Below are positions 1,090-58,066 of a stretch of 64,000 nucleotides of DNA, piece by piece (the stretch's first letter is position 1; each line of letters begins with the position of its first letter). Both the position numbers and the translations under genes were made by a program. The stretch is taken from assembly GCA_035541015.1 (NCBI GenBank), contig DATLFM010000097.1, positions 719 through 64,718 of the forward strand, given 5' to 3'. The notes beneath the pieces were generated by a model. It saw only the letters and a list, made by a program, of their open reading frames with translations, ran no database searches and was not told the origin of the DNA. The DNA is from Thermoplasmatota archaeon (lineage in GTDB: Archaea > Thermoplasmatota > SW-10-69-26 > JACQPN01 > JAIVGT01).

Positions 1090-3495
1090 TCATTGGACTT
1101 TCACGTTGTCGATGGCCCACCCGAGGTAGTTGTTGGCCGTCCCGTCGACCGAGTCGAAGAAGAAGCGGACCTTCGTGCCGCTGCTCTTGTAGCTCGACAG
1201 GCCGATCTCGACCGGGCCCCACGCCGTCTGGTCGGCGTTGCGGCTGTCGCGCTGCCAGAGGGTCGTCCACGACGTGCTGCCGGACACTTGCACCTGCACG
1301 CGCAGGATGTCGTAGGCGCCACCCGAATAGTTCTCCTTCACGTACTTCGTGTCGAAGGTGAGCTTGGGCGAGGCGATGTTGTTGAGGTTCATCGCCGGCG
1401 TGTCCGCGTTCCCGGTCGTGCGCGAGCCCGTCGCGTAGTTGCACGTGCTCGCCTGGTTGTACTGCAGGGAGTTGGGCGACGACACGGCTCCCGCGCACGT
1501 GCTGCCCACGCGCCACAGCCCGCTGAACGTCCAACCGGCAGGCGTGCCCGTTCCGCCGTCGAACTTCTCGTCGAGGACGGCCGTCGCAGCCTGGCACCCG
1601 CTGATGGACAGCGTGGCCGTGCCGGTGGCGCCGTTGTAGCCGCCAAGCTGGATGCGGTACGTCGTCCCGGAGGTGCAGGTGAAGCTGATCTGCGATTGCA
1701 GGCCGCCTCCCGTGTCGTCGTTGCAAGCGAGGTTCGCAAGTGAGCCAAGGCTGCTTCCGGTGTACGCGGCAACCACGGTGTCGTAGTTCGTGCTTCCGCC
1801 CACCGTGCTCACGGTCGCGGTGCCCGCGGCCGGCGCGGTCCAGCTGTACCAAACGGTCGCGCCGATGCTGCCGCACGGCCGCGGCTCGCCGGCCTCGAGG
1901 TCGGCCCCGCTCGTGCTTTGCGTGTTCGAGTAGGGCGATCCCGTGGCGGAGATGGGACTGCCAAAACAGTTGTTCGACGGTCCCGGACAGGAGGGCGTGG
2001 CCGAAACCTGGTTGCTGCGCGGTCCCTCGCCGACGGCGTTCACGGCGGAGACCTGGTAGTAGTACGTCACGCCGTTTGTCACGCTCGTGTCGGTGTACGA
2101 CGTCGTGACGCCAAGGCTCGCGTAGAGCGAGAGCGAGCCCGACGTGGTCCCCCGGTAGAGCCGGTAGCCCGTGATGGGGCTTCCGCCGTCGGAGGGCGTC
2201 GTCCACGAGAGCGACACTTGCAAGTTGCCGGCCGAGGCCGAAAGCGAAGGCGCCGAGGGCACTGAAGTCGCCGGAGCCGTCGCCGCGTCGGCGCGGATGC
2301 GGCCGTAGCCGAACTTGTTGTCGAAGCCCGCCGCGCCGAGGTCAAGGGCGGTGTTTCGCAATCGGTTCTCGATGTCCGTGAAGCCCCAGGACGGGTTGAG
2401 CGTCTTGAGGAGCGCGGCCGTGCCCGCCACGTGCGGCGTGGCCATCGAGGTGCCGCTCATCGTGCAGTAGCTGTTCGTGTTGGGGCCGCAGGCCGACAGG
2501 ATGTCGCTCCCGGGCGCCGAGACGTCCACTTGGGGCCCCTCGCTCGAGAAGCTCGAAAACCCGTCGGAGGAGGTCGTCGACGAGACGACGATCACGACAG
2601 ACGCCTTGTCGCGCCACGGGTAGGAGACGCAATTCGTGCACGGGCCCGAGTTGCCGGCGGCCGCGACGTGCGTGACGCCGCGGTCGTGCGAGTATTGCAC
2701 GGCGTCGTTCATGGCTGCGCTCGCGGCGCTGGAGCCCCACGAGTTCGAGGCGATGTGCGCGCCTTGGTCGCCGGCGTACTTGAGCGCGTTCACGAGCGTG
2801 GTGGTGGAGGACGTGCAGTAGATGCCGGAGACGTAGAACGCCTTCACGGGAAGGATCGTGTGCTGGCTCATGCCCGCGATGCCTTTGGCGTTGTTGATCG
2901 TGGCGCCGGCCGTGCCGGTGGTGTGCGTGCCGTGGTAGCCGCAGGCGCCTCCCTCGTCGTTCGGGTCGTTGTCGTTGTTCACGAAGTCGTACCCTTGCAG
3001 CACGCGGCCGGAGCCCGCGAACTCCTCGTGCGTCTTGACGAGGCCCGAATCCATCATCTGGACCTTGACGGAGGTGGAGCCAAGCGTCCGGTCCCACGCG
3101 GTCTCCGCGCCGATCTTCTTGCTGCCCCAGTGGCCCGAGTTGCCGTACAGGGAATCGTTGGGCACAAGCCGCAGGAAGGCCGCCATGGGGTTGTCCCATT
3201 CGTAGTAGCGCACGCGGTCGTCCGTGCGAACCTGCGCTTCGAAAAGCGAGGCTGGCTCGGCCCGCACGACGGCAAAGACGAGGTCCGCGTCGGTCCACAG
3301 CACGGTCGCACCGTGGTACGTCGCGCCCGGCTCGATCTCCGAAGGGATCCTGTCGAAGAACCCGACGATGTAGTCGCGCTCGCCCACCGGCGCGCGCGAA
3401 GGGTCCACGAGAATCGGATCGACGCTTGCAAGATCGGCCACGGCTGTGCCGTACGGGAAACCGAAGAACGCGATCGCGACGCTGACGCTCACCAA
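1090..3495 (-). CDS. Secreted subtilisin-like serine protease (peptidase S8) with C-terminal fibronectin-III/pre-peptidase beta-rich domains
   Basis: 801-aa ORF with a hydrophobic N-terminus. The catalytic S8 motifs are DSG..., GYHGTHTTGTAG and GTSMATPHVAG. The long Ser/Thr/Gly-rich C-terminal half is typical of surface proteases. Confidence 0.85.
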   Translation of the reverse strand: MVSVSVAIAFFGFPYGTAVADLASVDPILVDPSRAPVGERDYIVGFFDRIPSEIEPGATYHGATVLWTDADLVFAVVRAEPASLFEAQVRTDDRVRYYEWDNPMAAFLRLVPNDSLYGNSGHWGSKKIGAETAWDRTLGSTSVKVQMMDSGLVKTHEEFAGSGRVLQGYDFVNNDNDPNDEGGACGYHGTHTTGTAGATINNAKGIAGMSQHTILPVKAFYVSGIYCTSSTTTLVNALKYAGDQGAHIASNSWGSSAASAAMNDAVQYSHDRGVTHVAAAGNSGPCTNCVSYPWRDKASVVIVVSSTTSSDGFSSFSSEGPQVDVSAPGSDILSACGPNTNSYCTMSGTSMATPHVAGTAALLKTLNPSWGFTDIENRLRNTALDLGAAGFDNKFGYGRIRADAATAPATSVPSAPSLSASAGNLQVSLSWTTPSDGGSPITGYRLYRGTTSGSLSLYASLGVTTSYTDTSVTNGVTYYYQVSAVNAVGEGPRSNQVSATPSCPGPSNNCFGSPISATGSPYSNTQSTSGADLEAGEPRPCGSIGATVWYSWTAPAAGTATVSTVGGSTNYDTVVAAYTGSSLGSLANLACNDDTGGGLQSQISFTCTSGTTYRIQLGGYNGATGTATLSISGCQAATAVLDEKFDGGTGTPAGWTFSGLWRVGSTCAGAVSSPNSLQYNQASTCNYATGSRTTGNADTPAMNLNNIASPKLTFDTKYVKENYSGGAYDILRVQVQVSGSTSWTTLWQRDSRNADQTAWGPVEIGLSSYKSSGTKVRFFFDSVDGTANNYLGWAIDNVKVQ

Positions 3496-3596: not shown

Positions 3597-4673
3597 TCAT
3601 GGCCTGCGCGCGGCCGCGATCGCAACCCCGAACGCGAACAACACCCCGACCGGTTCGAGCGCGGGCGCACGGGCCGGAGGCGTCACGACGACGAAGCGCC
3701 ACTGGAACGAAAGCGTGCCGCCCTCGCTGTTGCGCGCCTCCAGCAGGACCGTGTGGTTGCCGGGAGCAAACCCACCAGCGGGAGCGTACGAGAAGGCGCC
3801 TTCCGAGAATGCCAACCGATCCGTGACTTCTTGCCGGTCCACAAACAGCCGAACGTGTCCGGTTTCGACGGCGCCCACAGGCGTGGAAAGCGTCACGCGG
3901 ACGCGCGCCGTGACGGGAACGACGGAGCCGTTGGCGGGCTCGTACGTTTCGAGCACGGGTCCCGGAACGAAGGTTCGCTCCGGCGTTGCAAGCGAGAACG
4001 TCGGCGAGCGCGCCGCGTTGCCCGAGAAATCGTGGCACGTGGCCCAATAGGTGTAGTTCGTTTTCGGCCGCAGCCCGATCACGGGGTAGTTCTGGAACCG
4101 GGCGGGTTCCGTCGTGGGGTACGGAACGGGCTCTGGCGCGCTCTCGCGGAGGATCTCGAGGTTGCACAAGGCGTGCTCGTCGGTCGTCGTGGAGATGAGC
4201 GCGCCGGCGTATGTGACGTTCTCCGGCGGCAGGAAAACGATGCGGGGCGGCGCGACGTCGCGGCGGAAGGCAAGCGAGTGGTTGCCGGCGGGAAGGCGAA
4301 CGCGGAACTCGACCAGAAACCCGTCGTCCTGCGCGCGGCCGGTGAGGTTGAACAGCGCGTGGTCGCCGGCGGCCTCCTCGAGCGCTGGGCTCGAGTATTC
4401 GTTGGGAATCGACCCGCCCACGGTGGGGACGACCTGCCGCGGGCGCTCGACGTCGAACGTGCCCGCGAATCGGATGCGCCCGTACACGGTGCGCTCGGCC
4501 GAGACGTTGAGGATCGCCGTATCGGCGTCGAGGCGGACCCACTGGGGGCCTTCCCCCTGCACGGTTCCTCGGGTGCCTTCCGCGTCCGCCTCGAAGTCGT
4601 CCGATGCCGCCTGCGCGACGCCGGGGAGGACGAGGACGCAAAGCGCGAACGCGAGCCTCCAATGCCCCCGCAT
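3597..4673 (-). CDS. Secreted hypothetical protein with signal peptide and C-terminal TM anchor plus basic tail (archaeal surface protein)
   Basis: The N-terminus MRGHWRLAFALCVLVLPGVAQAAS is a signal peptide. The C-terminus ...PVGVLFAFGVAIAAARRP is a hydrophobic segment followed by Arg residues, resembling PGF-CTERM-like anchors. Confidence 0.55.
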   Translation of the reverse strand: MRGHWRLAFALCVLVLPGVAQAASDDFEADAEGTRGTVQGEGPQWVRLDADTAILNVSAERTVYGRIRFAGTFDVERPRQVVPTVGGSIPNEYSSPALEEAAGDHALFNLTGRAQDDGFLVEFRVRLPAGNHSLAFRRDVAPPRIVFLPPENVTYAGALISTTTDEHALCNLEILRESAPEPVPYPTTEPARFQNYPVIGLRPKTNYTYWATCHDFSGNAARSPTFSLATPERTFVPGPVLETYEPANGSVVPVTARVRVTLSTPVGAVETGHVRLFVDRQEVTDRLAFSEGAFSYAPAGGFAPGNHTVLLEARNSEGGTLSFQWRFVVVTPPARAPALEPVGVLFAFGVAIAAARRP

Positions 4674-4741: not shown

Positions 4742-5959
4742 TCAGGCCGCGCCGCCGCGGATGAGGCCCCAGCCGTACGTGCTGTCGTGGCCGGAGGCCC
4801 CAAGGTCCATCGCGGTGGACTTCAGGCGGTCGTAGATCTGCTGGGACGTGAAGCCCGGGTTGTTGCTCTTCACGAGAGCGGCAAGGCCCGCCACGTGGGG
4901 CGTGGCCATCGAGGTGCCCGACGAGAGCACGTAGCACCGGTCGGCGTTCTGCTTCGTGCACGGCTGCTTGTCCGTCCACAGCGAGGGAATGTCCTCGCCC
5001 GGCGCGGAGAAGTCGAGCTCGGGGCCTTTGCTCGTGAACGACGACACGACGTTCGTCTTGCCCGTGCTGCCCACGGCCGTCACGCCCGGGTACTTCGCGG
5101 GATACTCCACACAGTTGCTGCAGCCGCCGTTCCCCGAGGCCGCCGCGATAAACGCGCCCGCGTCGAGGGCGGCGTTGATGGCGTTTCGGATGGTGGACGA
5201 GTCGCCCGTGGTGCCAAGCGAGTAGCTGTGGATGTGGGCGCCCGAGCCCGTGCAGGAGTTGATGCCGTTTGCCACCTGGCTTACGGTGCCCGAGCCGCGG
5301 GTGTTCAAGAGCTTCACGCCGCCGATGGCGACCTTCGTGATGCCCGCCACGCCCTTGGCGTTGTTCGGCATGGCGGCAATCGTGCCGGTGACGTGCGACC
5401 CGTGCCCGTTGTCGTCGTAGGCCGTGGTCTTGCCGTTGATGGCGTCAAACCAGTGGTACCAGGTCACGCCCTGAAAGTCCTCGTGCGTCCTGCGTTGGCC
5501 GGTGTCGCCCACGCAGACCTTCGTGGACGTCGTCCCGAAGCCTTTGTCCCAGGCAAGCTCCATGTTCGTGGTCGCGGGTTTCATGTCGTACTGGTAGTTC
5601 GCGTAGTGCGTGTCGTTGGGGACAAGCGAGGCCCGCACGACCTCAAGGTCCCGCTCGACGTAGCGCACGTTGTCGTCGCGTGCCGTGGTCGCGAAGAACT
5701 CGTGCGGAGTCGAAACGTCCACGACGAAGAACCGGAGGTCCTCGTTCACCGAGACGACGGTCTGGCCCGCGTACGTGGACCGGTCCTCCGGCAGCTCGTG
5801 GAAGGCCACGATCCACAGGCCCGACGACGCGCGCTCCGAAACGCCGGCCGATGCGAACTGCGGCGGTCCGGCGTCGGTCATGCCGACCTGCGGGACGGCC
5901 GAGGCGGTCGAAACTCCAAGCACAACGAACATCGCGATCACAACGACGATTCCTTTCAT
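4742..5959 (-). CDS. Secreted subtilisin-like serine protease (peptidase S8)
   Basis: The true start is probably the internal Met MKGIVVVIAMFVVLGVSTASA (signal peptide) at about 5959, within ORF 4742..6223. S8 motifs VGDTG, DDNGHGSHVTG and GTSMATPHVAGLAAL are present. Confidence 0.85.
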   Translation of the reverse strand: MKGIVVVIAMFVVLGVSTASAVPQVGMTDAGPPQFASAGVSERASSGLWIVAFHELPEDRSTYAGQTVVSVNEDLRFFVVDVSTPHEFFATTARDDNVRYVERDLEVVRASLVPNDTHYANYQYDMKPATTNMELAWDKGFGTTSTKVCVGDTGQRRTHEDFQGVTWYHWFDAINGKTTAYDDNGHGSHVTGTIAAMPNNAKGVAGITKVAIGGVKLLNTRGSGTVSQVANGINSCTGSGAHIHSYSLGTTGDSSTIRNAINAALDAGAFIAAASGNGGCSNCVEYPAKYPGVTAVGSTGKTNVVSSFTSKGPELDFSAPGEDIPSLWTDKQPCTKQNADRCYVLSSGTSMATPHVAGLAALVKSNNPGFTSQQIYDRLKSTAMDLGASGHDSTYGWGLIRGGAA

Positions 5960-6137: not shown

Positions 6138-7646
6138 CTATTGCAACGATTGCACAGGAGCGAGCACCCGGCGGCCGTCCACGCCCGAAGGTGCGATCGG
6201 GGGCGCGTCCTGCCCGACTGCAAGCGCGGCGTGGGCGCCCGGCACGTGCGTCAGGATGACCCGCGCAAGCGCGCGTCGAATCCGGATGCCCGCCGTGCTC
6301 GCGCTTGCATGGATCTCGCGACCCACCTGCGCCAATCCGATGCGCCGGGGGGATGCAAAGAAACCGCCCTCGGCGGCCTTGCGCAGCGCGCGAAGGTCGG
6401 CGCCGGCGCGGTTTGCAAAAGAGGGTGCTTCCGGGATCTGCACGAACCGGTACCGGCCTTGCGCGAAGTCCCGCACGCCTTGGGCAAAGCGCGCAAGCCC
6501 CGGCTGCGATCCGTAGGCCGTAAGCCTTCCCGCGCCGTGGCGAAACTCGGTCGTGAGCGCGCCGGCCGCTCCGCAAGCGTCCCGGAGGAGGTGCTCGGGC
6601 GAGAATCCTCCGGAGCCCTCGCGCGGCCGGGCCCAGCGCTCGAAGATGACCCGACGTCCGAGGGACCGCTCGAGAACCTCCCGCGCCAGGATCGGTTGCG
6701 GAAGGGCCCCGCCCAGCTGGCGATCGAGCCGCGCTACCGCCTCGGGCGGGCCTTCCACGACGAGGATCTCCCAGGCCTCTGCGTCGACGACCGAAAGCGA
6801 TTCCACGCGACCCACGAGCGCGGGCTCCGACAGGATGGCCGAGCGAAGTCCCGTCGCCTCGACGGGTGCCCAAAGCTCCACGGCAAGCGATGGCGAGCCG
6901 CTTCGCTGCGCGCGGATCCACTCGAGGTGCAAGGCGCAAAGACGCGCCACGGCGCGACGGAGATCCTCCTCCAGCGCGCTCTTCGAGCGGTTCTGCCGCG
7001 CCGCAAGCAGCCGGATGGAGGTGCGCCGCGGCTCGTCGAAGTATCCATGGGAGAGGGCGTGAAGGAGGATCCTCTCGTCCGGCGGGGCAAGCCCCCCCGA
7101 TGCCGCCTTGGAAGGCGCCGGCCCAAGGCGCAGCAGGCGCAAGCGAAGCGAGGGAGCCAACGCCGTTCGCGCGGCGTCGACGAAACGCTCGAACGGGGCC
7201 TCGGCGGGCGCGGTGACGGTGACAAGGAGCGCGCCGGCTTCCACGCGGGCCGCGTAGGCCGCGCGGGGACCCAGCTCGCGCGCGCAAAGCTGGGGAAGCG
7301 ACGGGCGCCCGCGCCCGTCGTCGAGGTCCGGGTCGAAAAAGGCCAGCGAGCCCGGTTGGCGCGCCAGGGGCTGGAGGGTTCCGCCGGCGGCGGCTTCGCG
7401 CGCCAGCCGGGCCGAGAGCTCGTCGAGGTCGCGCTCGGGCCCCTGCACGATCACCAGGCGGGACACGGCGTCGGAGGTGGCGCAGGTGGTTCGGATCGTG
7501 GCGCGGAGCTTGGGGCGCGCCAAGAGAAGATCGTAGACGGGGCTGGGGCTCCGACCGGTCACGGCGAATTCGACTTGTCGGCGCACCGACTGCCCCCGCC
7601 GGGTCAACCGCCGCCAAGCGCAAGAACGTTGCGTCCCAAGCCGCAA
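6138..7646 (-). CDS. Hypothetical protein with an internal HTH_10 (Bat-type) helix-turn-helix motif. It may be two fused or adjacent genes.
   Basis: 502-aa ORF. Residues around 195-245, ERILLHALSHGYFDEPRRTSIRLLAARQNRSKSALEEDLRRAVARL, match the HTH_10 pattern (GYFD.PR...ELA...G.S.S..S..LRRA..KL). The opposite-strand ORF 6111..7823 is Arg-rich nonsense. Confidence 0.35.
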   Translation of the reverse strand: MRLGTQRSCAWRRLTRRGQSVRRQVEFAVTGRSPSPVYDLLLARPKLRATIRTTCATSDAVSRLVIVQGPERDLDELSARLAREAAAGGTLQPLARQPGSLAFFDPDLDDGRGRPSLPQLCARELGPRAAYAARVEAGALLVTVTAPAEAPFERFVDAARTALAPSLRLRLLRLGPAPSKAASGGLAPPDERILLHALSHGYFDEPRRTSIRLLAARQNRSKSALEEDLRRAVARLCALHLEWIRAQRSGSPSLAVELWAPVEATGLRSAILSEPALVGRVESLSVVDAEAWEILVVEGPPEAVARLDRQLGGALPQPILAREVLERSLGRRVIFERWARPREGSGGFSPEHLLRDACGAAGALTTEFRHGAGRLTAYGSQPGLARFAQGVRDFAQGRYRFVQIPEAPSFANRAGADLRALRKAAEGGFFASPRRIGLAQVGREIHASASTAGIRIRRALARVILTHVPGAHAALAVGQDAPPIAPSGVDGRRVLAPVQSLQ

Positions 7647-7680: not shown

Positions 7681-9825
7681 ATGCGCGCGCTTCTGGCGAC
7701 GGCTGCCCTCGGTGCGGTCCTCCTGTCGGCCCTGTGGCTTGCCGGCGACGCGTCCGCTGCGCGGGAGTCGACCGTGGTCGCGCTTGCCTACAACGTCGAC
7801 GTTACCCAGCCGACCCTCCTTGACCAGGGCATCGTGCAGGTGACCCTGGAGATTCGAAACGCGCGCGATCGGGTCCTCAACTTCACGTTGCGCACGGCGA
7901 CGCACGAGTACGCTGTCCTGCGTCTCTTCAACGATCTTGGCGGGACCCTGCGGCAGCACGCGGGCGGCTGGAACTTCACGCCGACCTCGGACGTCGCGTC
8001 CTTCATGTACGAGATCAACGTGCGCAAGCCCGCCACCACGCCCAGCGAGTACAACAGCTGGCTCTCGCCGGCCTTTGGCGTCGTGAAGGCCGAGGCGTTG
8101 TCCATCCCGTTCGATTACACCTACTACTGTCCCGTCGGATGGACCGGCGGCCAGCCGTGCCCGGGCCCGAACTTCACGGCCGCGGTCACGTTCCGGCTGC
8201 CCGCCGGCTGGAACGTCGAAGCCCCATGGGAGGCCACGGGCCCCGGTCAGTTCGTGCTCCCGGCCGGCGACGCGATCCGCGGCGTGCTGCCGCGCGGCTT
8301 TGTCGCGCTGGGTCCGTTTTCGGGCGAGTCGCAGGAGCGCGCGGGCAAGACGTTCGTGTACGCGCGCCTCTCCGGCGAGCTTGCGGACCGCTCCGTGATC
8401 TTCGACTACCTCGAGGCGGCCACGCCCTACTACGCAAGCGTGTACGGCAACGTCACGCGCGACAAGATCCTCGTCATCAGCGCGGGCGCGCCCATGTTCC
8501 ACGGGGGCCTCGGGTCGACCGACTCCCTTTTCGTGCACCAGAACGCCACGCTGAAGACGATCGCGCACGAGTACGCGCACACGTACCAGATGTTCCAGGC
8601 GCACAACGTGGCCGGCGCCTCGACGATCTGGATCAACGAGGGCGACGCGGACTATCACGGCGCGATTTCGCGCTTCGTCGCGGGCTTCCTCTCGCTCGAC
8701 CTCCTCAACGCCGAGCTTCGAAGCGAGTACGAGAACCGCACCCAGGACCCCAACCGCGGCGAGGTTGCGCTCACGAGCCCCGTGTACGGGGCCGACGACC
8801 AGCAGGTCGCCTACCGCAAGGGCATGTTCACGCTTGCGCACCTGGGATCCGAGCTCTCCGGCGCCACGAACGGCCGCGCCACGCTTGCCACCATCATGAC
8901 CGCCCTCAACCAGGAGTACGTCGAGAACATCAGCCGGAACACGAGCCGGCTGCCACGCGTCACGAACGACGACATGCTCCGCGTGGTGAACCGGCTGGCG
9001 CGCTCCGACGGCGTGCTCGTGGACTTCTCGACGTTCTTTGATCTCTACGTCTTTGGCCCGACCTACCCGCCGTTTCGGGAGGTCGTCGCGCTCGAGGACA
9101 TCGTGCTCGAAGCGCTGCGGGCCTCACCCTCGCCCGCCCTGCCCGGTCAGCCGGTGCAGGTCACGGTGGAGGCGCGCAACCGCGGCCCCACGGCGGCGGA
9201 GCGCGTCATCACGCTTCGCGTGGGCGGTCAGGTCGTGGGGACGCAAACGTTGTCCCTTGGCATCGGGGAATCGGGAAGCGCCCGCTTCGTCTGGACGCCC
9301 GACGAGCCGGGCGACTACGTCCTTGAAGCGGCCTACCTGCAGCGGATCCTGCCCGTGCTCGTCCCGGCCGAGTTCGCCATCGTGGGTATGGACCCCACGC
9401 CCACGTTCCCCATGGCGCTGCGACCCTTCGACGTGGTCGTCTTCGTGCGCAACACCGGGCAGGCTCCCGGGGAGGCCCTCGTGCGCGTGAATATCGGCGA
9501 GACCGAACGCACGGCGGCGCTCTCGATCCCCGGCGGCGTCACCGCGCGCGCGAGCGTCGCGTTCACGCTCCCGGAGGCCGGCGAATACGAGATCGCCGCT
9601 CGGCTGGACGGGTCGGAGGCGCCGCCCCGGCGGCAGACCTTGCGCGTGGACGAGCTCGACAGCGACGGCGACGGCGTTCCCGACGCGCGCGACGCGTACC
9701 CGCACAACCCAAACCTTTGGGAATCGAATCCGGTGAACGACGTCCGCAACGCGACGCCGGCGTGGGAATCGCTGCCGCTTGCGGTGGGGTTCTGCGCGCT
9801 CCTCCTGCGTCGGCGGCGCGCCTAG
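7681..9825 (+). CDS. Secreted HExxH zinc metalloprotease with tandem CARDB domains, an Asp-rich Ca-binding repeat and a C-terminal membrane anchor
   Basis: The signal peptide is MRALLATAALGAVLLSALWLAGDASA. The zinc-binding motif is TIAHEYAHTYQ (HExxH). There are two CARDB-like beta-sandwich segments (PGQPVQVTVEARNRG... and FDVVVFVRNTGQAPGEA...). A thrombospondin-type-3-like DSDGDGVPDARDAYPHNP repeat is present. The C-terminus is LPLAVGFCALLLRRRRA. Confidence 0.7.
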   Translation: MRALLATAALGAVLLSALWLAGDASAARESTVVALAYNVDVTQPTLLDQGIVQVTLEIRNARDRVLNFTLRTATHEYAVLRLFNDLGGTLRQHAGGWNFTPTSDVASFMYEINVRKPATTPSEYNSWLSPAFGVVKAEALSIPFDYTYYCPVGWTGGQPCPGPNFTAAVTFRLPAGWNVEAPWEATGPGQFVLPAGDAIRGVLPRGFVALGPFSGESQERAGKTFVYARLSGELADRSVIFDYLEAATPYYASVYGNVTRDKILVISAGAPMFHGGLGSTDSLFVHQNATLKTIAHEYAHTYQMFQAHNVAGASTIWINEGDADYHGAISRFVAGFLSLDLLNAELRSEYENRTQDPNRGEVALTSPVYGADDQQVAYRKGMFTLAHLGSELSGATNGRATLATIMTALNQEYVENISRNTSRLPRVTNDDMLRVVNRLARSDGVLVDFSTFFDLYVFGPTYPPFREVVALEDIVLEALRASPSPALPGQPVQVTVEARNRGPTAAERVITLRVGGQVVGTQTLSLGIGESGSARFVWTPDEPGDYVLEAAYLQRILPVLVPAEFAIVGMDPTPTFPMALRPFDVVVFVRNTGQAPGEALVRVNIGETERTAALSIPGGVTARASVAFTLPEAGEYEIAARLDGSEAPPRRQTLRVDELDSDGDGVPDARDAYPHNPNLWESNPVNDVRNATPAWESLPLAVGFCALLLRRRRA

Positions 9826-9837
9826 CCCTCGGGCCGC

Positions 9838-10686
9838 TCAAAGCGCCTTTGCGACCACGCTTGCGACCGAGACGAGCGACGCCTGCCCCTCGATCGTGTC
9901 GGTGGCGACGACCTCGTCCACGCCGGAGGACAGGAGTTTCGGGAGCGCGTCCTGGATGAAAAGGCCGTGCGTGCAGGCGGCGACGACCTTCTTTGCGCCT
10001 TGCCGCTTGAGCTCGCCGGCCGCCTTCACCATCGTGCCGCCGGTGCTGATGATGTCGTCGAGGATCACGACCGTCCGCCCGTCGACGGCCATCTCCTTGG
10101 GCATCATGACGACCTCCGTCGACGTGAGGCGCTTCTTCTCCAGGTGGTCGCTCTTGGCCTTCAAGAACATGGCCGCCTCGTGCGCACGCTCGGCCGCCCC
10201 GGCGTCGGGAGCCAGCACGACCTCCACGCCAAGGTTGCGCAGGTGGTCGCAGATGGCCGGCACGGCCGTCACGGCGCGGCAGGGAACGTGGAACATGTGG
10301 CTGATGGCGGGCCGATGGGGATCGACGAGCAGCACGCGGTCGGTCGACCGCTCGATGATGCGCGCGACGACCTCGGCCGAAACGGCCTCGCCGTCCACAA
10401 AGACGCGATCCTGGCGAGCGTAGCCGAGGTACGGGATCACGGTCGTCACGCTGCGAGCGTTGCTGCGCCGGCACGCATCCTGGATGAGCAGGAGCTCGAC
10501 GAGCGCGCCGTCGGAGACCGTCGATTGCACGACGACGACGTCTTGCCCCCGAACCGGCGTCGTGAGGCGGGCGTACGCCTCCCCGTCCGGGAAGCGCTTG
10601 GTCTCCACGCGGGCAAGCGGCACGCCCAGTTGGTCGGCCAGGCGCTTGGACAAAACAGGGTTCTGCGGCCCCGACACGACCAGCAT
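9838..10686 (-). CDS. prs: Ribose-phosphate pyrophosphokinase (PRPP synthetase)
   Basis: 282-aa ORF with PRPP-synthase motifs (KRFPDGE, PYLGYARQDR, the DDIISTGGT PRPP-binding loop). Confidence 0.9.
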   Translation of the reverse strand: MLVVSGPQNPVLSKRLADQLGVPLARVETKRFPDGEAYARLTTPVRGQDVVVVQSTVSDGALVELLLIQDACRRSNARSVTTVIPYLGYARQDRVFVDGEAVSAEVVARIIERSTDRVLLVDPHRPAISHMFHVPCRAVTAVPAICDHLRNLGVEVVLAPDAGAAERAHEAAMFLKAKSDHLEKKRLTSTEVVMMPKEMAVDGRTVVILDDIISTGGTMVKAAGELKRQGAKKVVAACTHGLFIQDALPKLLSSGVDEVVATDTIEGQASLVSVASVVAKAL

Positions 10687-10874: not shown

Positions 10875-12884
10875 ATGAACGAGACGAAACAGGTCGACGA
10901 GTGGGTCAAGGAGCAGGATTTCTCCACGACGGAGGACATCAAGGTTCCGGACCGGCTCATCGACCAGGTCATCGGCCAGGAGAAGGCCGTCGAGGTGATG
11001 CGGAAGGCCGCGGAGCAGCGGCGCCACGTCATGCTCATCGGCGACCCCGGAACGGGCAAGTCCATGCTCGCCAAGGCCATGAGCGAGCTTCTGCCGCCCG
11101 AGGAACTCGAGGACATCATCGCCTACCCCAATCCCGACGACAATCACCAGCCGCGCATCCGGGTCGTGCCGGCCGGCAAGGGCAAGGAGATCGTCTCCGC
11201 CCAGAAGGCCGAGGCGCAACGCAAGCAGGAGCGCAAGGCCACCATGCAGCTCCTCGTGGTCGTGGCCCTCATCGCGCTTGGCGTCGCCATGTTCCTTGCA
11301 AGCCAGCCGCACGAGCCCATGTTCCTCCTGCTGGGACTCTTTGGCGCGCTCATCCTCTTCATGATCATGCGGCAGATGACGGTTCGCGAGACGTCGCTTG
11401 TCCCCAAGCTCCTCGTGAGCCACACGCCCGGCGAGAAGCCCCCGTTCGTCGACGGCACGGGCAGCCACGCGGGCTCGCTTTTGGGCGACGTGCGCCACGA
11501 CCCCTTCCAGTCGGGCGGCCTCGAGACGCCCGCGCACGACCGCGTCGAGGCCGGGGCCATCCACAAGGCGCACAAGGGCGTGCTCTTCATCGACGAGATC
11601 AACATGCTCCGCATGGAGAGCCAGCAGTCGCTGCTCACCGCCCTCCAGGAGCGGAAGTTCCCGATCCTCGGCCAATCCGAGCGCTCCAGCGGCGCGATGG
11701 TGAAGACGGAGTCCGTGCCGTGCGACTTCGTGCTCGTCGCGGCGGGCAACATGGACGCGCTCAAGGGCCAGGAAGGCAACCCCTTCCACCCGGGCATGCA
11801 CCCGGCGCTCCGCTCGCGCATCCGCGGGTACGGCTACGAAGTCTTCATGAACAGCACGATGGACGATTCCGACGAGAACCGCTGGAAGCTCGTCCGCTTC
11901 GTGGCGCAAGAGGTCAAGAAGGACACGAAGATCCCGCATTTCGACAAGATGGCCGTCGCCGAGATCCTTCGCGACGCCCAGCGGCGCAGCGGCCGGCGCG
12001 GCAAGCTCACGCTTCGCCTGCGCGAGCTTGGCGGCCTCGTGCGCGTGGCCGGGGACGTGGCCATCGAAGCAAAGGCGCCGCTTGTCACGCAGACCCACGT
12101 CGTGAAGGCCAAGATGATCGCGCGCTCGCTTGAGCAGCAGGTCGTCGACCAGATGATCGAGCACCGCCGCGAGTACCGCACGTTCCGCGTGAGCGGCGGC
12201 GCCATCGGCCAGGTGAACGGCCTTGCCGTCTTCATGGGCGGCGAGGTGGGCGAGCCCTCGGGCATCGTCATGCCGATTGCCGCCGAGGTGACGCCCTCCC
12301 AAAGCAAGAGCGAGGGCAAGGTCATCGCGACGGGCAAGCTTGGCGACATCGCCCGCGAAGCGGTCCAGAACGTGGCCGCCGTGATCAAGAAGCACACGGG
12401 CGTCGACGTCACGACGCACGACATCCACATCCAGTTCGTTCTCGCGCACGAGGGCGTCGAGGGCGACTCGGCCTCCATCTCGGTGGCGACGGCCGTCATC
12501 AGCGCGCTCGAGGAGATCGAGGTCGACCAGGGCGCGGCCATGACCGGATCGCTGTCCATCCGCGGCGACGTGCTCCCCGTGGGAGGCGTCACGGCCAAGA
12601 TCGAGGCGGCCGCCGAGGCGGGCCTGAAGAAGGTCATCATCCCAAGGGCAAACCTCCAGGACGTCCTCATCGAGGAGCGCTACCGCGACCGCATCAAGAT
12701 CGTGCCCGTGGAGACGCTCGACGAGGTCCTCCAGGAAGTCCTCATGACAAGCCCCAAGAAGAAGGGCCTCGTGGAGAAGCTCGCCAAGTTCATGCACAAG
12801 ACGAGCACGACGCTTGGAACGGGCGTTCCGGGCGCCGGCGTGCCGGCCGGCGCAAGCGGCGCCACGAAGACGCCCGGCCTCTAG
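10875..12884 (+). CDS. lonB: Archaeal membrane-bound ATP-dependent Lon protease (LonB)
   Basis: 669 aa. It has a Walker A GDPGTGKS, a two-TM insertion inside the AAA+ module (LLVVVALIALGVAMFLA...LFGALILFMIM) and a C-terminal Lon protease domain with the EGDSASISVATAVISAL serine motif. Confidence 0.9.
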   Translation: MNETKQVDEWVKEQDFSTTEDIKVPDRLIDQVIGQEKAVEVMRKAAEQRRHVMLIGDPGTGKSMLAKAMSELLPPEELEDIIAYPNPDDNHQPRIRVVPAGKGKEIVSAQKAEAQRKQERKATMQLLVVVALIALGVAMFLASQPHEPMFLLLGLFGALILFMIMRQMTVRETSLVPKLLVSHTPGEKPPFVDGTGSHAGSLLGDVRHDPFQSGGLETPAHDRVEAGAIHKAHKGVLFIDEINMLRMESQQSLLTALQERKFPILGQSERSSGAMVKTESVPCDFVLVAAGNMDALKGQEGNPFHPGMHPALRSRIRGYGYEVFMNSTMDDSDENRWKLVRFVAQEVKKDTKIPHFDKMAVAEILRDAQRRSGRRGKLTLRLRELGGLVRVAGDVAIEAKAPLVTQTHVVKAKMIARSLEQQVVDQMIEHRREYRTFRVSGGAIGQVNGLAVFMGGEVGEPSGIVMPIAAEVTPSQSKSEGKVIATGKLGDIAREAVQNVAAVIKKHTGVDVTTHDIHIQFVLAHEGVEGDSASISVATAVISALEEIEVDQGAAMTGSLSIRGDVLPVGGVTAKIEAAAEAGLKKVIIPRANLQDVLIEERYRDRIKIVPVETLDEVLQEVLMTSPKKKGLVEKLAKFMHKTSTTLGTGVPGAGVPAGASGATKTPGL

Positions 12885-26725: not shown

Positions 26726-27178
26726 TCAGCGCCGGCCGTAGGTCCAGTGGAAGTTGAGCGCGTAGTTGAACGAGAAGGCGCACAGCACGGCAAACAGCGC
26801 CGAGACCATGTAGGGGAAGCCCGCAAGCTCGGTGAAGGCAAAGAGCGCCGCCACGTTGATGCAAAGCCCGCCGAGGTTCACGACCTCGTAGCGGGCGAAC
26901 CGGCCGGCCCGAAGCCCGCTTCGCCGGTCGTGGAACGTGAAGGCGTCGTTGAGGAGAAAGTTCGTGACGATGGCCGTCTGGGTGGCGACGGCGCCGCTTG
27001 CGAGGTAGTACAGACCCGCGAACTCCGTGAGCGTGTAGAGCACGGCGAGGTTCACGCCGACGCCGCTTGCGCCCACGAGCATGAAGCGCAGCAGGCGGTG
27101 CGCCTCGAGGAAGGCGAGGCGGCGCCGGGCGTGGCCCGCAAGATCGAGCGCGCCAAGCCCGCCGCGCGGGGGGTCCAT
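26726..27178 (-). CDS. GtrA-family membrane protein (putative polyprenyl/dolichyl-phosphate-sugar flippase)
   Basis: 150 aa with 4 TM segments, forming the C-terminal portion of spurious ORF 26726..29218. The sequence RFMLVGASGVGVNLAVLYTLTEF...NFLLNDAFTFH is the GtrA family pattern. Confidence 0.7.
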   Translation of the reverse strand: MDPPRGGLGALDLAGHARRRLAFLEAHRLLRFMLVGASGVGVNLAVLYTLTEFAGLYYLASGAVATQTAIVTNFLLNDAFTFHDRRSGLRAGRFARYEVVNLGGLCINVAALFAFTELAGFPYMVSALFAVLCAFSFNYALNFHWTYGRR

Positions 27179-27259
27179 GGACTCCGCAAGACGCGCGCTC
27201 CGCATAAAGGAACAGGATTTGGAAACCCTTATCCGAGCGCTCGCTTTGCGTTGGAACCG

Positions 27260-29398
27260 ATGCTCGGGATCGCGCGGTGGGCGCTCCTCGGGTACGTCGG
27301 GCTCGCGCTTGCGCTCACCGCCCGGCTGCTCGCCTCGTTCCCGCACACGTGGCCGCGCGGTCCCGACCTCTACAACCTGTTCCTCCACCCGTTCCTCACG
27401 GCGCAGGGCGACTGGCTTTGGACCTCCCTTTCCGGCGCGGGCCACCCGCTGCACGCGCACCCGTTCAGCAGCACGTGGTACCCGCTCACGACCGGCCCCG
27501 TCGCGCTTCTGGGCCCCGAGCTTGGCGTCTACGCCATCCTCCTCGTGCACCTGGTCCTGGGCGCCGTGTTCTTCGACGTCCTCGCGCGCCGGTACGTTCC
27601 CGACCCGGCGTGGCGGTTCGTCGGCGCGTCGATCTTCCTGCTCGGCGGCTGCTTTGCGTCCCGGGTGTTCGCCGGCCACCTCGTGTTCCTTCCCAGCATC
27701 GCCTGGGCCCCGCTTGCGCTCCATTTCCTGCTGCGCGTCGCCGACGGCGAGGGCCTCCGGCCCGTGGTTGGCGCGGGCGTGGCGATCGGCGTCATGCTGC
27801 TGGGCGACGTCCACGTTCCCTTGTACATGGGCTTGGCCGCGCTTGCGCTCATGGCGACGGACGGCTTCGAATGGCCGACGGGGCGCTGGGCTCTCCCGCG
27901 CCTGCGGCCGCGGGTCCTGCTCGCGCTTGTGGCGGTCTTCCCCGTGGCCGCCGCCGTTGCGGCCGTGAAGGTGCTTCCGCTTGCCGAGTTCAGCTTCGTC
28001 GTAGGCCGCGTGGTCGAGCCCCTGTACGCGAGCATGGGCCTCTACGACCAGATCGCGTCCTTCCTCTCGAACGCGCGGTGGCAGATCCCGCAGGTGAACT
28101 TCGAGGAGCGCAACGTCTTCATCGGCCCGCTCGCGTTTGGCCTTGCGATCGCCGGCGCCTTTGCCTTCCCCGAGAAGCGCCGGATGCTCGCCCTCGTCGC
28201 CGTGCTCGTGATCTGGATCCAGGGGTTCTTCACGCCGCTTGGCGTCCTGCACCAGCTCCCCGTCCTGTCGATGCTTCGCGCGCCCGCGCGGGCCATGATG
28301 GTGCTCTTCCCGCTCGTGGTGCTCCTGGCCGCCGTGGGCCTTGCACGCCTGCCCCACTGGCTCGACCGCCTGGCGCCGGACCGTGCGCGCTGGCTTTGCC
28401 GCGGAACGCTTGCGCTTGCGGGCCTGCAGGCGCTTGAGATCGTGATGCCCGCGCTCGTGTTCCTCGTCATGCCGGCGATGTACGCGCGGTTCACCGAGAT
28501 CACGTCGTACGACGTGCGCCCGCTCGACCTGCTGTCGGTCGTGGCCGGCGTGCTCGTGGCCGCGCTCGTGCTGTCGCGCATGGGGCAGCCGATCCGTTGG
28601 CCTCCCCGTTGGCTTCCCCAGGGGCTGGCGCTGTTCATCGTGGGCTCGCTCCTTGCCGTGAACGGAAGCCTCTTCACGCCCGCCCCCTACCCCGGGCAGA
28701 CGGACGCGAGCGCGGAGCTTGCCGCCGCGCTTCCCCAGGAGGGCTACCATCTCGTGGAGCCCGACGGCGTGACCGACCTCTTCCTCGTCGCGAAAGGCGT
28801 TCCGACGCTGGAGGGCGTCGAGGGCCACAGCCTCGAGTGGATCAACGAGCCAAGCCTGCTTCTCGGGCGGGGCCCGCGCGCCTACCGCGTGGGCGAGCGC
28901 GTCCTGCATTGGCGCGACTACCTCGTGACGAACGCCACAGCGGAGAAGCACGCCAACGACTCGTCGCTGCGCCTTGTACAGACGCTCCACACGAAAGCTT
29001 TGGGCCCCCTTCTCCTGTACGAGGATCTGCAAGCCGCTCCACCGGCCTTCGTCGTGCGCGGAAGCGACGTGCAGCCCGCGAGCCTGCGGGCGATCGGCGG
29101 AGGCTCGATCGTGATCGATGCGCCGGCGCTTTCGGCGGGGGAGCGCGTGACGGTCAAGCAGACGTACTACCCCGGCTGGACCGTCTCGACCCCCGGCTTC
29201 CGCGTGGTCGACGATCAAGGCATGATCGCGGCCGAGGCCACGGCCGACTTCGCCGGAGGCGACGTTCGCCTTTCGTTCTCGCCGCCGCTTTTCTGGATCG
29301 GCGCGGCCATCGCGATCCCGACGCTTGCCGCGGCGGCCTGGGTTCTGGCTGGGGGCCGCGCCGCACTTGCGCCAAGGATCGGGCGTCTCCGGCCCTAG
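27260..29398 (+). CDS. Large polytopic membrane protein with a C-terminal extracytoplasmic domain. It may be a GT-C-like, dolichol-phosphate-sugar-dependent glycosyltransferase (AglS/YfhO-like).
   Basis: 712 aa from the ATG at about 27260, inside ORF 26747..29398. It has at least 12 predicted TM helices, then a 230-aa soluble domain and a final TM. It is divergent from the GtrA gene across an 81-bp intergenic region. Confidence 0.55.
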   Translation: MLGIARWALLGYVGLALALTARLLASFPHTWPRGPDLYNLFLHPFLTAQGDWLWTSLSGAGHPLHAHPFSSTWYPLTTGPVALLGPELGVYAILLVHLVLGAVFFDVLARRYVPDPAWRFVGASIFLLGGCFASRVFAGHLVFLPSIAWAPLALHFLLRVADGEGLRPVVGAGVAIGVMLLGDVHVPLYMGLAALALMATDGFEWPTGRWALPRLRPRVLLALVAVFPVAAAVAAVKVLPLAEFSFVVGRVVEPLYASMGLYDQIASFLSNARWQIPQVNFEERNVFIGPLAFGLAIAGAFAFPEKRRMLALVAVLVIWIQGFFTPLGVLHQLPVLSMLRAPARAMMVLFPLVVLLAAVGLARLPHWLDRLAPDRARWLCRGTLALAGLQALEIVMPALVFLVMPAMYARFTEITSYDVRPLDLLSVVAGVLVAALVLSRMGQPIRWPPRWLPQGLALFIVGSLLAVNGSLFTPAPYPGQTDASAELAAALPQEGYHLVEPDGVTDLFLVAKGVPTLEGVEGHSLEWINEPSLLLGRGPRAYRVGERVLHWRDYLVTNATAEKHANDSSLRLVQTLHTKALGPLLLYEDLQAAPPAFVVRGSDVQPASLRAIGGGSIVIDAPALSAGERVTVKQTYYPGWTVSTPGFRVVDDQGMIAAEATADFAGGDVRLSFSPPLFWIGAAIAIPTLAAAAWVLAGGRAALAPRIGRLRP

Positions 29399-31498: not shown

Positions 31499-31759
31499 CT
31501 AGCCGCCGGAGCCGGGCGCGTCCTCGTCGGCGGAGATGCGGAGGAACCGTAGGGCCGTGACCACCATCATGACGTCGAACACGAGGTTGCCGGCGATGAT
31601 CACAAGGCCGAGCACCTGGTAGCGCACGTTGTCGAGCCGGATGCCCTGCTCCACGAAAATGGCGCCCACGAGGATGGGCAACAGGACAAGCCCGGGGGCG
31701 AGGAAGAGCTCCGCCCGGACGCCGCGCCGCAGGAGGTTCCGCTGCTTCACGCGAGCCAC
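31499..31759 (-). CDS. Small membrane protein (2 TM)
   Basis: 86-aa ORF that overlaps the end of the upstream membrane-protein gene by 13 bp. Confidence 0.3.
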   Translation of the reverse strand: MARVKQRNLLRRGVRAELFLAPGLVLLPILVGAIFVEQGIRLDNVRYQVLGLVIIAGNLVFDVMMVVTALRFLRISADEDAPGSGG

Positions 31760-57999: not shown

Positions 58000-58066
58000 G
58001 CGATTCGGGCAAGGGGCCGGATCGGTAAAAGAGAATGCTTTTGACGCCGGAGGGGATGGCCCCGGC

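What the first reader, a model, noticed from the sequence alone, without database searches (positions are those of the whole stretch)
7681..9825. Multidomain secreted zinc metalloprotease: HEYAH motif, two CARDB domains, Ca-binding Asp repeat and a C-terminal basic-tailed anchor
This domain combination is not a standard named peptidase family member. Together with three S8 subtilisins at 1090..3495, 4742..5959 and 37568..38641, it gives this 64-kb window four secreted endopeptidases. That points to an extracellular protein-degrading lifestyle. The C-terminal ...PLAVGFCALLLRRRRA resembles, but is not identical to, PGF-CTERM archaeosortase signals.
Basis: partly seen in the sequence, partly recalled or inferred. 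Interest (0 to 1): 0.5.

Follow-up and report, generated by a model that had tools for sequence, protein, structure and literature searches.

The report
Cell-surface M1/M61-like zinc peptidase, archaeal
This gene encodes a zinc peptidase that a soil or sediment archaeon (Thermoplasmatota) most likely displays on its cell surface; it is a divergent, so far unannotated relative of the well-known M1/M61 aminopeptidases, so it is a useful annotation fix and not a new kind of enzyme.

Summary
The ORF at 7681..9825 (+), 714 aa, is real and matches the description. It is deposited as "CARDB domain-containing protein" from a Candidatus Thermoplasmatota MAG.

Residues 27–470 form a two-domain M1/M61-type gluzincin peptidase module. 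HEYAH (296–300), the Glu ligand E320 (NEGDAD) and Y378 are kept in all 35 catalytically intact relatives and align with ERAP1 H353/E354/H357/E376/Y438. Fold searches return only M61 and M1 peptidases at the top. It is not a metzincin.

No Pfam or NCBIfam peptidase model reaches its threshold. The M1 GxMEN exopeptidase motif is absent. The His-to-Glu spacer is 19 residues here and up to 33 in homologs.

Downstream lie two CARDB-type Ig domains (one passes Pfam, the second is a divergent copy), one TSP3-like Asp motif and a hydrophobic + RRRR tail. Two homologs pass the PGF-CTERM model.

The family is rare (about 30 full-length cluster representatives), found almost only in Thermoplasmatota MAGs, and syntenic with prs–lonB. 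Whether it cuts at peptide ends or internally is unresolved. Interest is moderate to low.

The parts
7681..9825 (+). Complete gene, 714 aa plus stop: surface-tethered M1/M61-like gluzincin peptidase
   Evidence: ORF list; GC3 0.91; identical protein deposited from a Ca. Thermoplasmatota MAG
7681..7758 (+). Sec-type signal peptide, aa 1-26 (MRALLATAALGAVLLSALWLAGDASA|A)
   Evidence: Read from the sequence. An equivalent hydrophobic N-terminus is present in the full-length homologs. No signal-peptide predictor was available.
7768..8370 (+). N-terminal beta-sandwich domain, aa ~30-230 (counterpart of M1/M61 domain I). It contains the K136-A-E138 motif, which is lost in four of the five catalytically dead relatives.
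   Evidence: AF2 models; Foldseek alignments of 470-506 columns to M61 and two-domain M1 structures; conservation. No Pfam N-domain model hits.
8371..9090 (+). Thermolysin-like catalytic domain, aa ~231-470
8491..8526 (+). PMFHGGLGSTDS block, aa 271-282. It lies about 20 residues upstream of HExxH, roughly where M1 enzymes carry GxMEN, and contains no Glu.
   Evidence: P271, G275 and G276 are 35/35 in active relatives, and G275 is lost in all five dead ones. G.MEN is absent from the protein. Equivalence to GxMEN is positional inference only.
8566..8580 (+). HEYAH, aa 296-300: zinc ligands H296 and H300, catalytic base E297
   Evidence: 35/35 in active relatives; aligns to ERAP1 HELAH
8635..8652 (+). 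NEGDAD, aa 319-324: E320 is the third zinc ligand (gluzincin)
   Evidence: E320 is 35/35; aligns to ERAP1 WLNEGFA. The spacer from H300 is 19 residues here and up to 33 in homologs.
8812..8814 (+). Y378 (VAYRKG): predicted transition-state-stabilising tyrosine
   Evidence: 35/35 in active relatives and replaced in all five dead ones; aligns to the Tyr of ERAP1 VSYDKG
9094..9360 (+). CARDB domain 1, aa ~472-560
9364..9654 (+). CARDB-like domain 2, aa ~562-658 (divergent)
   Evidence: hhalign against domain 1: probability 96.9 %, E 1.9e-10. The exhaustive profile search hits tandem-CARDB proteins across profile positions 450-640.
9658..9702 (+). Single TSP3-like Asp-rich motif DSDGDGVPDARDAYP, aa 660-674 (putative Ca2+ site)
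   Evidence: Pfam TSP_3 sub-threshold, E 0.095; G665, D668, D671 and P674 invariant; weak match to an OmpA-family chain, 5wtl
9703..9756 (+). Conserved linker HNPNLWESNPVNDVRNAT, aa 675-692 (family consensus NPxLSExxxVNDxRN)
   Evidence: Alignments; modelled as disordered
9757..9822 (+). C-terminal three-part tail, aa 693-714: PAW signature, hydrophobic ESLPLAVGFCALLL, basic RRRRA
   Evidence: Aligns with PGF/PGxG tails of homologs. Homologs P0002 and P0006 pass TIGR04126 PGF_CTERM; the window tail hits nothing at E<=10.
9838..10686 (-). Context: ribose-phosphate pyrophosphokinase (prs), convergent; conserved neighbour
   Evidence: Pfam; syntenic in 5 of 7 related loci
10875..12884 (+). Context: archaeal LonB protease; conserved neighbour
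   Evidence: Pfam Lon_C and LonB_AAA-LID; syntenic in 5 of 7 loci
6138..7646 (-). Context: divergently oriented HTH_10 / HVO_2928_N transcription regulator; not a conserved neighbour
   Evidence: Pfam; no match in any related locus

Best explanation
The gene encodes a catalytically competent, zinc-dependent gluzincin peptidase of the M1/M61 lineage (MEROPS clan MA(E), by my reading) that is exported and held on the outer face of the archaeal membrane.

Anatomy and proposed mechanism:
1. A Sec signal peptide (aa 1-26) directs export.
2. A two-domain peptidase head (N-terminal beta-sandwich plus thermolysin-like catalytic domain, aa ~30-470) binds one Zn2+ through H296, H300 and E320. E297 activates the water and Y378 stabilises the tetrahedral intermediate, as in M1 aminopeptidases.
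3. Two CARDB-type Ig domains and a single TSP3-like Asp motif (probably Ca2+-binding) form a stalk.
4. A C-terminal tail (P-A-W, hydrophobic segment, RRRRA) keeps the protein on the cell. It does so either as a plain membrane anchor or after archaeosortase-type cleavage and lipidation, as the bona fide PGF-CTERM tails of some homologs suggest.

The most likely role is processing extracellular peptides close to the membrane, downstream of the secreted subtilisins encoded nearby.

Shown: the ORF, the domain order, conservation of the catalytic residues, the fold class, the family distribution and the synteny.
Inferred: zinc binding, activity, Ca2+ binding, surface location and substrate.
Unresolved (roughly even odds): whether it removes N-terminal residues or cuts internally.
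For: - Catalytic residues: HEYAH, W317, E320-G and Y378-x-K-G are invariant in 16 homologs and in 35/35 catalytically intact relatives, including syntenic orthologs at only 27-30 % identity.
- Sequence link to M1: the family profile aligns to ERAP1 and other M1 enzymes at E 3e-4 to 5e-4. The pairs are HEYAH<->HELAH, WINEGDAD<->WLNEGFAK and VAYRKG<->VSYDKG.
- Internal control: five distant relatives have lost H296, E297, H300 and Y378 together, so these residues behave as one functional unit.
- Weak family hits: relatives match Pfam Peptidase_M1 (11/16, best 1.2e-4) and Peptidase_M61 (7/16, best 3e-6).
- Stalk.
- Tail: the three-part architecture is conserved, and two homologs pass PGF_CTERM (33.7 and 29.0 bits against a cutoff of 24.5). 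The three-part signal and ArtA mechanism are described in PMC7157517.
- Context: three S8 subtilisins in the window; extracellular peptidases are a described trait of Thermoplasmatota (PMC12220078).
Against: - No curated peptidase model reaches threshold for this protein: M61 scores 14.4 against 22 bits and M1 gives no hit.
- Model confidence around the active-site strand and helix is only ~55-65 pLDDT. Active-site geometry could not be inspected.
- GxMEN is absent, so the canonical M1 aminopeptidase mechanism cannot be assumed.
- The window tail fails every sorting-signal model, and no archaeosortase is encoded in the window.
- No biochemical or expression data exist.
Confidence: 0.78

Rival explanations
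1. It is a broad-specificity endopeptidase that attacks intact extracellular proteins, acting in parallel with the subtilisins and not downstream of them.
For: - The GxMEN motif, whose Glu holds the substrate's free N-terminus in M1 aminopeptidases, is absent, and no Glu lies in aa 268-290.
- There is no C-terminal helical cap domain (M1 domain IV), so the groove may be open.
- One of the two best structural matches, 7xyo (MfuP), is described as an M61 endopeptidase. The M1 enzyme AplP has endo- and aminopeptidase activity (PMC10885120).
Against: - The N-terminal beta-sandwich domain, which in M1/M61 enzymes closes one end of the groove (my knowledge of the family), is retained and conserved.
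- An N-domain K-A-E motif (E/D in 29/35 active relatives) is lost in most catalytically dead relatives and could replace the N-terminus anchor.
- Most characterised relatives, including the two-domain M1 enzyme 6ifg, which was crystallised with a Tyr-Ser-Ala substrate and with single amino acids, are aminopeptidases.
Confidence: 0.35
2. It is a dedicated housekeeping processing peptidase for the organism's own envelope or secreted proteins, and not a nutritional enzyme.
For: - The gene is vertically inherited at a housekeeping locus next to prs and lonB in 5 of 7 genomes, across 27-42 % identity.
- It is single-copy in each locus.
- The S8 and regulator neighbours are not conserved.
- MfuP shows that M61 enzymes can be highly substrate-specific (PMC10885120).
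Against: - Synteny with prs and lonB implies no functional link.
- No candidate substrate gene is conserved beside it.
- The family is patchy within Thermoplasmatota: only 7 species representatives were found by a pattern-limited scan, and about 30 cluster representatives in the exhaustive search.
Confidence: 0.15
3. The C-terminal tail is a plain stop-transfer membrane anchor that is never processed. This copy is not an archaeosortase substrate.
For: - The window tail hits no sorting-signal model at E<=10 and has PAW in place of PGF.
- A paper cited in PMC7157517 is titled as showing that permuting the PGF motif blocks ArtA-dependent cleavage and lipidation in Haloferax volcanii; I read the title only.
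- No archaeosortase is encoded in the window.
Against: - Homologs carry tails that pass PGF_CTERM.
- The signature position varies across the family as P-(G/A/L)-(F/W/P/L/A), with PAF, PLW and PAW variants in orthologs, so a lineage-specific sortase with relaxed specificity is possible.
- The hydrophobic stretch is only ~13-14 residues after PAWE, which is short for a stable helix.
- The rest of the genome could not be searched.
Confidence: 0.45
4. It is a non-catalytic surface protein (adhesin or envelope component) that merely retains a peptidase-like fold.
For: - Five distant family representatives are clearly catalytically dead yet keep the architecture and the tail, so the scaffold has a function without catalysis.
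- CARDB domains are typical of archaeal surface proteins.
Against: - The window protein and all seven genomic orthologs keep every catalytic residue (H296, E297, H300, E320, Y378), even at 27 % identity.
- These residues are lost together in the dead branch, so in the active branch they are under selection.
Confidence: 0.05

Closest known systems
M61 peptidases (glycyl aminopeptidase family; solved examples 7xyo MfuP of Myxococcus fulvus, 4fgm of Idiomarina loihiensis, 8j9c/8j9d of Xanthomonas campestris)
   Same: - Same order of N-terminal beta-sandwich followed by an HExxH...E catalytic domain.
- Weak Pfam PF05299 matches in 7 of 16 homologs, best 3e-6; profile hit to 8j9c at E 1.5e-3.
   Different: - The window protein scores 14.4 bits against the M61 cutoff of 22.
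- No PDZ domain is detected; PDZ as a typical M61 feature is from my memory.
- This protein instead has 2 CARDB domains, a TSP3-like motif and a membrane tail.
- It is archaeal and exported.
- It carries an NEGDAD block with two conserved Asp next to the Glu ligand.
M1 aminopeptidases (ERAP1, IRAP, PepN, LTA4H, tricorn-interacting factor F3), especially the two-domain M1 metallopeptidase of Deinococcus radiodurans (6ifg, 6kp0)
   Same: - HExxH, a downstream NEG Glu ligand and a Y-x-K-G tyrosine align residue for residue with ERAP1.
- The two-domain (N-domain plus catalytic) layout without domain IV matches the Deinococcus enzyme in size, ~430-444 aa.
   Different: - GxMEN is absent (GGLGS at about that position).
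- The His-to-Glu spacer is 19 residues, variable up to 33, instead of 18.
- There is no Pfam PF01433 hit for this protein.
- It is exported and membrane-tethered with an Ig-domain stalk.
[quoted passage not shown]
   Same: - Three-part C-terminus: short Pro-containing signature, hydrophobic segment, Arg cluster (PMC7157517).
- Homologs P0002 and P0006 pass TIGR04126.
   Different: - The window tail reads PAW, not PGF, and matches no model.
- The lineage is Thermoplasmatota.
- Presence of an archaeosortase is unknown.
CARDB-domain archaeal surface proteins (for example Pyrococcus PF1109, 3idu)
   Same: Two tandem CARDB-type Ig domains. 3idu matches the model at 2.0 A over 90 residues. Thousands of multi-CARDB proteins match profile positions 450-640.
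   Different: Here the CARDB pair is a stalk under an enzymatic head, not a long repeat array.

Membership tests
Peptidase M1 (Pfam PF01433) | Sequence matches the curated family model above threshold | tested here: not met
   No PF01433 hit for the window protein at E<=1. 11 of 16 homologs give only weak hits, best E 1.2e-4.
Peptidase M1 | HExxH with a downstream Glu as third zinc ligand (gluzincin, W-x-N-E-G context) | tested here: met
   HEYAH at 296-300 and WINEG with E320; invariant; aligned to ERAP1 HELAH and WLNEG
Peptidase M1 | Fixed HExxH-X18-E spacing | tested here: not met
   19 residues lie between H300 and E320 here; homologs carry 22 and 33
Peptidase M1 | GxMEN exopeptidase motif upstream of HExxH | tested here: not met
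   The regex G.MEN is absent from the protein. The invariant block is PMFxGGLG, with no Glu in aa 268-290.
Peptidase M1 | Catalytic tyrosine about 80 residues after HExxH | tested here: met
   Y378 aligns to the Tyr of ERAP1 VSYDKG; 35/35 in active relatives
Peptidase M1 | C-terminal helical (ARM-like) domain capping the active site in canonical members | tested here: not met
   The models show Ig domains directly after the catalytic domain. Two-domain M1 enzymes that also lack it exist (6ifg).
Peptidase M61 (Pfam PF05299) | Sequence matches the curated family model above threshold | tested here: not met
   14.4 bits against a cutoff of 22, E 0.052. 7 of 16 homologs match at E<=0.1, best 3e-6, and P0014 carries a precomputed PF05299 hit. 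The family sits at the edge of M61.
Peptidase M61 | Fold of N-domain plus catalytic domain like solved M61 structures | tested here: met
   [not shown]
Peptidase M61 | C-terminal PDZ domain (typical of the family; from memory, not checked in a source) | tested here: not met
   No PDZ hit in Pfam; CARDB domains follow instead
Metzincins | Extended HExxHxxGxxH/D motif and Met-turn | tested here: not met
   The sequence reads HEYAHTYQMFQ, with no Gly at +3 and no His/Asp at +6 after H300. A Glu ligand and the M1/M61 fold are found instead.
CARDB (Pfam PF07705) | Matches the model above threshold | tested here: met
   Domain 1 scores 38.2 bits against 22.7. Domain 2 is linked only through homology to domain 1 (hhalign 96.9 %).
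TSP type 3 repeat (Pfam PF02412) | Matches the model above threshold; DxDxDGxxDxxD calcium loop | tested here: inconclusive
   12.8 bits against 25. The motif DSDGDGVPDARD is present and conserved. Calcium binding was not tested.
PGF-CTERM sorting domain (NCBIfam TIGR04126) | Matches the model above threshold | tested here: not met
   The window tail gives no hit at E<=10. Homologs P0002 (33.7 bits) and P0006 (29.0 bits) pass the cutoff of 24.5.
PGF-CTERM sorting domain | P-G-F signature followed by a hydrophobic segment and basic residues | tested here: inconclusive
   The hydrophobic segment and RRRRA are present. The signature is P-A-W at the aligned position. Orthologs show PAF, PLW and PGP variants.
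PGF-CTERM sorting domain | Cognate archaeosortase A encoded in the genome | not testable with these tools
   None of the multi-TM ORFs in the window matches an archaeosortase model. The rest of the MAG is not available.

The most novel reading that the evidence does not exclude
This protein and its roughly 30 cluster-level relatives form a separate, so far unclassified MEROPS-level family of clan MA(E), found almost only in Thermoplasmatota. It would have its own substrate-anchoring solution: a GGLG block plus an N-domain K-A-E motif in place of GxMEN, a variable His-to-Glu spacer and an NEGDAD block. It would also be displayed through a relaxed P-(G/A)-(F/W) archaeosortase-type signal, and would have a catalytically dead sister branch reused as a surface scaffold.
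Probability: 0.35. Interest if true: 0.45.

Novelty: new variant of a known kind. Interest (0 to 1): 0.3.

Why it matters
Surveys of archaeal protein degradation in soils and sediments count extracellular peptidases by BLAST against MEROPS together with signal-peptide calls. One Thermoplasmatota survey lists C11, M14B and S08A (PMC12220078).

This family is deposited as "CARDB domain-containing" or "hypothetical" and reaches no curated peptidase threshold, so such surveys probably miss it. Recognising it would add a cell-anchored metallopeptidase to the proteolytic toolkit of high-GC Thermoplasmatota. It would also give a compact two-domain M1/M61 variant without GxMEN for studying what sets exo- versus endo-specificity. 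The P-(G/A/L)-(F/W/...) tails are a small natural test set for archaeosortase signal tolerance outside haloarchaea and methanogens.

None of this changes current concepts. It is an annotation and classification gain.

Tried and rejected
- Metzincin reading (Met-turn): rejected. The motif context is HEYAHTYQMFQ and a Glu ligand with the M1/M61 fold is present.
- Single-sequence search against PDB: only a chance Filamin hit. The family profile was needed.
- NCBIfam on the whole protein: only noise.
- Aligning the GGLG block to GxMEN with a short profile of aa 236-336: the alignments to LTA4H and ERAP2 begin after the block, so equivalence remains positional inference.
- Literature on M61 active-site motifs: no open paper on 7xyo or 8j9c motifs was found, only a review statement that MfuP is an endopeptidase.
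- Archaeosortase in the window: multi-TM ORFs at 26747..29398, 31747..32445 and 57707..59500 gave no archaeosortase hit; the last is DUF63.
- Conserved link to the S8 genes or the HTH_10 regulator: not found in any related locus.
- AFDB fold search: the library was unavailable.
- Modelling the peptidase module alone to improve superposition: M61 structures rose to the top, but TM stayed at or below 0.42.
- Coordinates of the models could not be inspected, so zinc-site geometry and groove openness were not measured.
Full report
**1. Observation**

The ORF at 7681..9825 on the + strand is present exactly as described: ATG start, 714 codons. Its third-position GC of 0.91 matches the other real genes of this ~69 % GC window. 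An identical protein is deposited as [quoted passage not shown] on a 69-kb contig.

- HEYAH lies at residues 296-300 and is the only HExxH. About 0.008 would be expected by chance for this composition.
- The N-terminus (MRALLATAALGAVLLSALWLAGDASA|A) looks like a Sec signal peptide.
- The C-terminus is a hydrophobic stretch followed by RRRRA.

**2. What the N-terminal half is**

Pfam and NCBIfam assign no peptidase family to this protein. The only hint is Peptidase_M61 at E 0.052, 14.4 bits against a cutoff of 22.

Homologs. A search of 5.8 billion proteins found 15 homologs at 33-41 % identity, all about 700 aa with the same layout.

Sequence link to M1. A profile of the family matches ERAP1 and other M1 aminopeptidases in the PDB at E 3e-4 to 5e-4. 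The aligned pairs are HEYAH with HELAH, WINEGDAD with WLNEGFAK, and VAYRKG with VSYDKG. By my count, using ERAP1 residue numbers from memory, H296/E297/H300/E320/Y378 pair with ERAP1 H353/E354/H357/E376/Y438, that is, the zinc ligands, the general base and the transition-state tyrosine. Individually, 11 of 16 homologs hit Peptidase_M1 weakly (best 1.2e-4) and 7 of 16 hit Peptidase_M61 (best 3e-6).

**3. Structure**

The AlphaFold2 model of the full protein has mean pLDDT 78. It shows:
- a beta-sandwich (aa ~30-230);
- an alpha/beta plus helical catalytic domain (aa ~237-457);
- two Ig-like domains (474-559 and 565-657);
- a disordered tail.

A model of the module alone (aa 27-470, pTM 0.74) puts three M61 structures first (7xyo, 4fgm and 8j9c, E 5.5e-16 to 3.7e-15). 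It also finds the two-domain M1 peptidase of Deinococcus radiodurans (6ifg, E 1.7e-12), which has the same N-domain plus catalytic-domain layout and size.

Caveats:
- Global TM-scores are only 0.3-0.42.
- pLDDT around the active-site strand and helix is ~55-65.
- I could not inspect coordinates.

The fold class is therefore well supported, but the active-site geometry is not verified.

**4. How it differs from M1 and M61**

- The M1 exopeptidase motif GxMEN is absent. The block at about that position reads GGLGS, and aa 268-290 contain no Glu. No tool aligned that block to GxMEN, so the equivalence is positional inference.
- The spacer between H300 and E320 is 19 residues, and 22 or 33 in some homologs, against the fixed 18 of M1.
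- There is no M1 domain IV and no PDZ domain.
- Two conserved Asp residues flank the Glu ligand (NEGDAD).

**5. An internal control from the wider family**

An exhaustive profile search of 1.84 billion cluster representatives found only about 30 full-length relatives. The thousands of other hits match only the CARDB pair.

Across 35 catalytically intact sequences, including 7 genomic orthologs, these positions are 35/35: P271, G275, G276, H296, E297, H300, Q303, W317, E320, G321, A323, Y378, K380 and G381.

Five distant representatives (P0033, P0042, P0123, P0134, P0141) have lost H296, E297, H300 and Y378 together. All five have also lost G275 and Y369, and four of the five have lost the basic residue of the N-domain K136-A-E138 motif. 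They keep scaffold residues such as P174, W177, W317, E320, K380 and G381. This co-loss shows that the catalytic set is a functional unit, and it points to the GG block and the N-domain K-A-E as substrate-binding elements. The window protein has the full catalytic set.

**6. Exo or endo**

This is unresolved.

For an aminopeptidase-like action:
- the retained N-domain;
- the conserved N-domain acidic residue (E138);
- the fact that most characterised relatives are aminopeptidases.

For internal cleavage:
- loss of GxMEN;
- lack of a cap domain;
- the precedent of MfuP (7xyo), an M61 endopeptidase, and AplP, an M1 enzyme with both activities (PMC10885120).

I put the odds near even.

**7. The C-terminal half**

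- CARDB 1 passes Pfam (38.2 against 22.7 bits).
- Domain 2 is not called by Pfam but is a homolog of domain 1 (hhalign 96.9 %, E 1.9e-10).
- A solved archaeal CARDB domain (3idu) matches the model at 2.0 A over 90 residues.
- The "Asp repeat" is one DSDGDGVPDARDAYP motif. It is sub-threshold for TSP_3 (E 0.095) but conserved. Calcium binding is inferred.

**8. The tail**

ArtA substrates carry a PGF motif, a hydrophobic domain and positive charges (PMC7157517).

- Homologs P0002 (…TPGFGAGAALAALGAGLVLARRRRR) and P0006 pass NCBIfam PGF_CTERM, with 33.7 and 29.0 bits against a cutoff of 24.5.
- The window tail matches no sorting model even at E<=10.
- In the alignments PGF lines up with P693-A-W695 of the window protein, not with the V-G-F inside its hydrophobic segment.
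- Across orthologs the signature varies: PGF, PGP, PGL, PGA, PAF, PLW and PAW.
- No archaeosortase is encoded in the window, and the rest of the genome could not be searched.

Either way the protein should stay on the cell, either as a lipid-anchored sortase product or through a plain C-terminal anchor. I rate these two as roughly equally likely for this copy.

**9. Distribution and context**

The seven related genomic loci come from Thermoplasmatota or Thermoplasmatales MAGs, apart from one contig labelled Halobacteriales. In five of them the gene is followed by a convergent prs gene and then lonB, as in the window. This includes orthologs at only 27-30 % identity. So the gene is old and vertically inherited at a housekeeping locus.

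The upstream HTH_10 regulator (6138..7646, -) and the S8 genes are not conserved neighbours.

- the one at 4742..5959 has a clear signal peptide;
- the one at 37568..38641 has a lipobox-like LAGC;
- the one at 1090..3495 has a hydrophobic N-terminus with an uncertain start.

An extracellular proteolytic lifestyle is plausible, and it is already a described trait of Thermoplasmatota (PMC12220078 and PMC9239135).

**10. Verdict**

The finding is real and the core interpretation holds. Its precise identity is a divergent, surface-tethered member of the M1/M61 gluzincin lineage that current family models miss. It is a new variant of a known kind and is of modest interest, mainly for annotation of archaeal secreted-protein sets, for the exo/endo specificity question in M1/M61 enzymes, and for the tolerance of archaeosortase-type signals.

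Noticed in passing
window 3597..4673 (-): A 358-aa ORF lies between two of the S8 subtilisin genes. It has a clear signal peptide (MRGHWRLAFALCVLVLPGVAQA|ASDD) and a tripartite-like C-terminal tail (…EPVGVLFAFGVAIAAARRP), so it is a second protein in the window with a hydrophobic + RR tail. It has no Pfam or NCBIfam match.
   Followed up: partly
proteins P0033, P0042, P0123, P0134, P0141 (distant family representatives): A catalytically dead branch of the family. It has lost H296, E297, H300 and Y378, plus G275 and Y369, and in four of five the basic residue of K136-A-E138. It keeps the scaffold residues, overall length, signal peptide and C-terminal anchor. These are possible pseudo-peptidase surface proteins. 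Their genomic context is unknown.
   Followed up: partly
window 26747..29398 (+): An 883-aa ORF with about 13 predicted transmembrane segments and coding-like GC3, but no Pfam or NCBIfam hit at the thresholds used.
   Followed up: partly
window 57707..59500 (+): A 597-aa, ~9-TM protein that matches Pfam DUF63 (E 9.5e-43), an archaeal membrane protein family of unknown function. It has no archaeosortase model hit.
   Followed up: no
window 37568..38641 (-) and 48830..49801 (-): The third S8 subtilisin and an unassigned 323-aa protein both have lipobox-like N-termini (…LVPSLAGC, …FVAGC). This suggests N-terminal lipid anchoring of some exported proteins, alongside the C-terminal tails.
   Followed up: no
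window 8800..8802 (residue Q374 of the protease): The window protein has Gln where 32 of 35 catalytically intact relatives have Glu or Asp, four residues before the catalytic Tyr. The significance is unknown.
   Followed up: no
window 7681..9825 (+): There are nine N-x-S/T sequons in the protein, including N690-A-T immediately before the PAW signature. N-glycosylation of the exported protein is possible. Whether the sequons are conserved was not analysed.
   Followed up: no
window 38433..39743 (+) and 35724..37613 (+): A DgcN-like N-acetyltransferase (NCBIfam E 3.3e-75, below the equivalog cutoff) and an Amidohydro_3 protein flank the third S8 gene. They may be part of an amino-acid or peptide utilisation cluster.
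   Followed up: no
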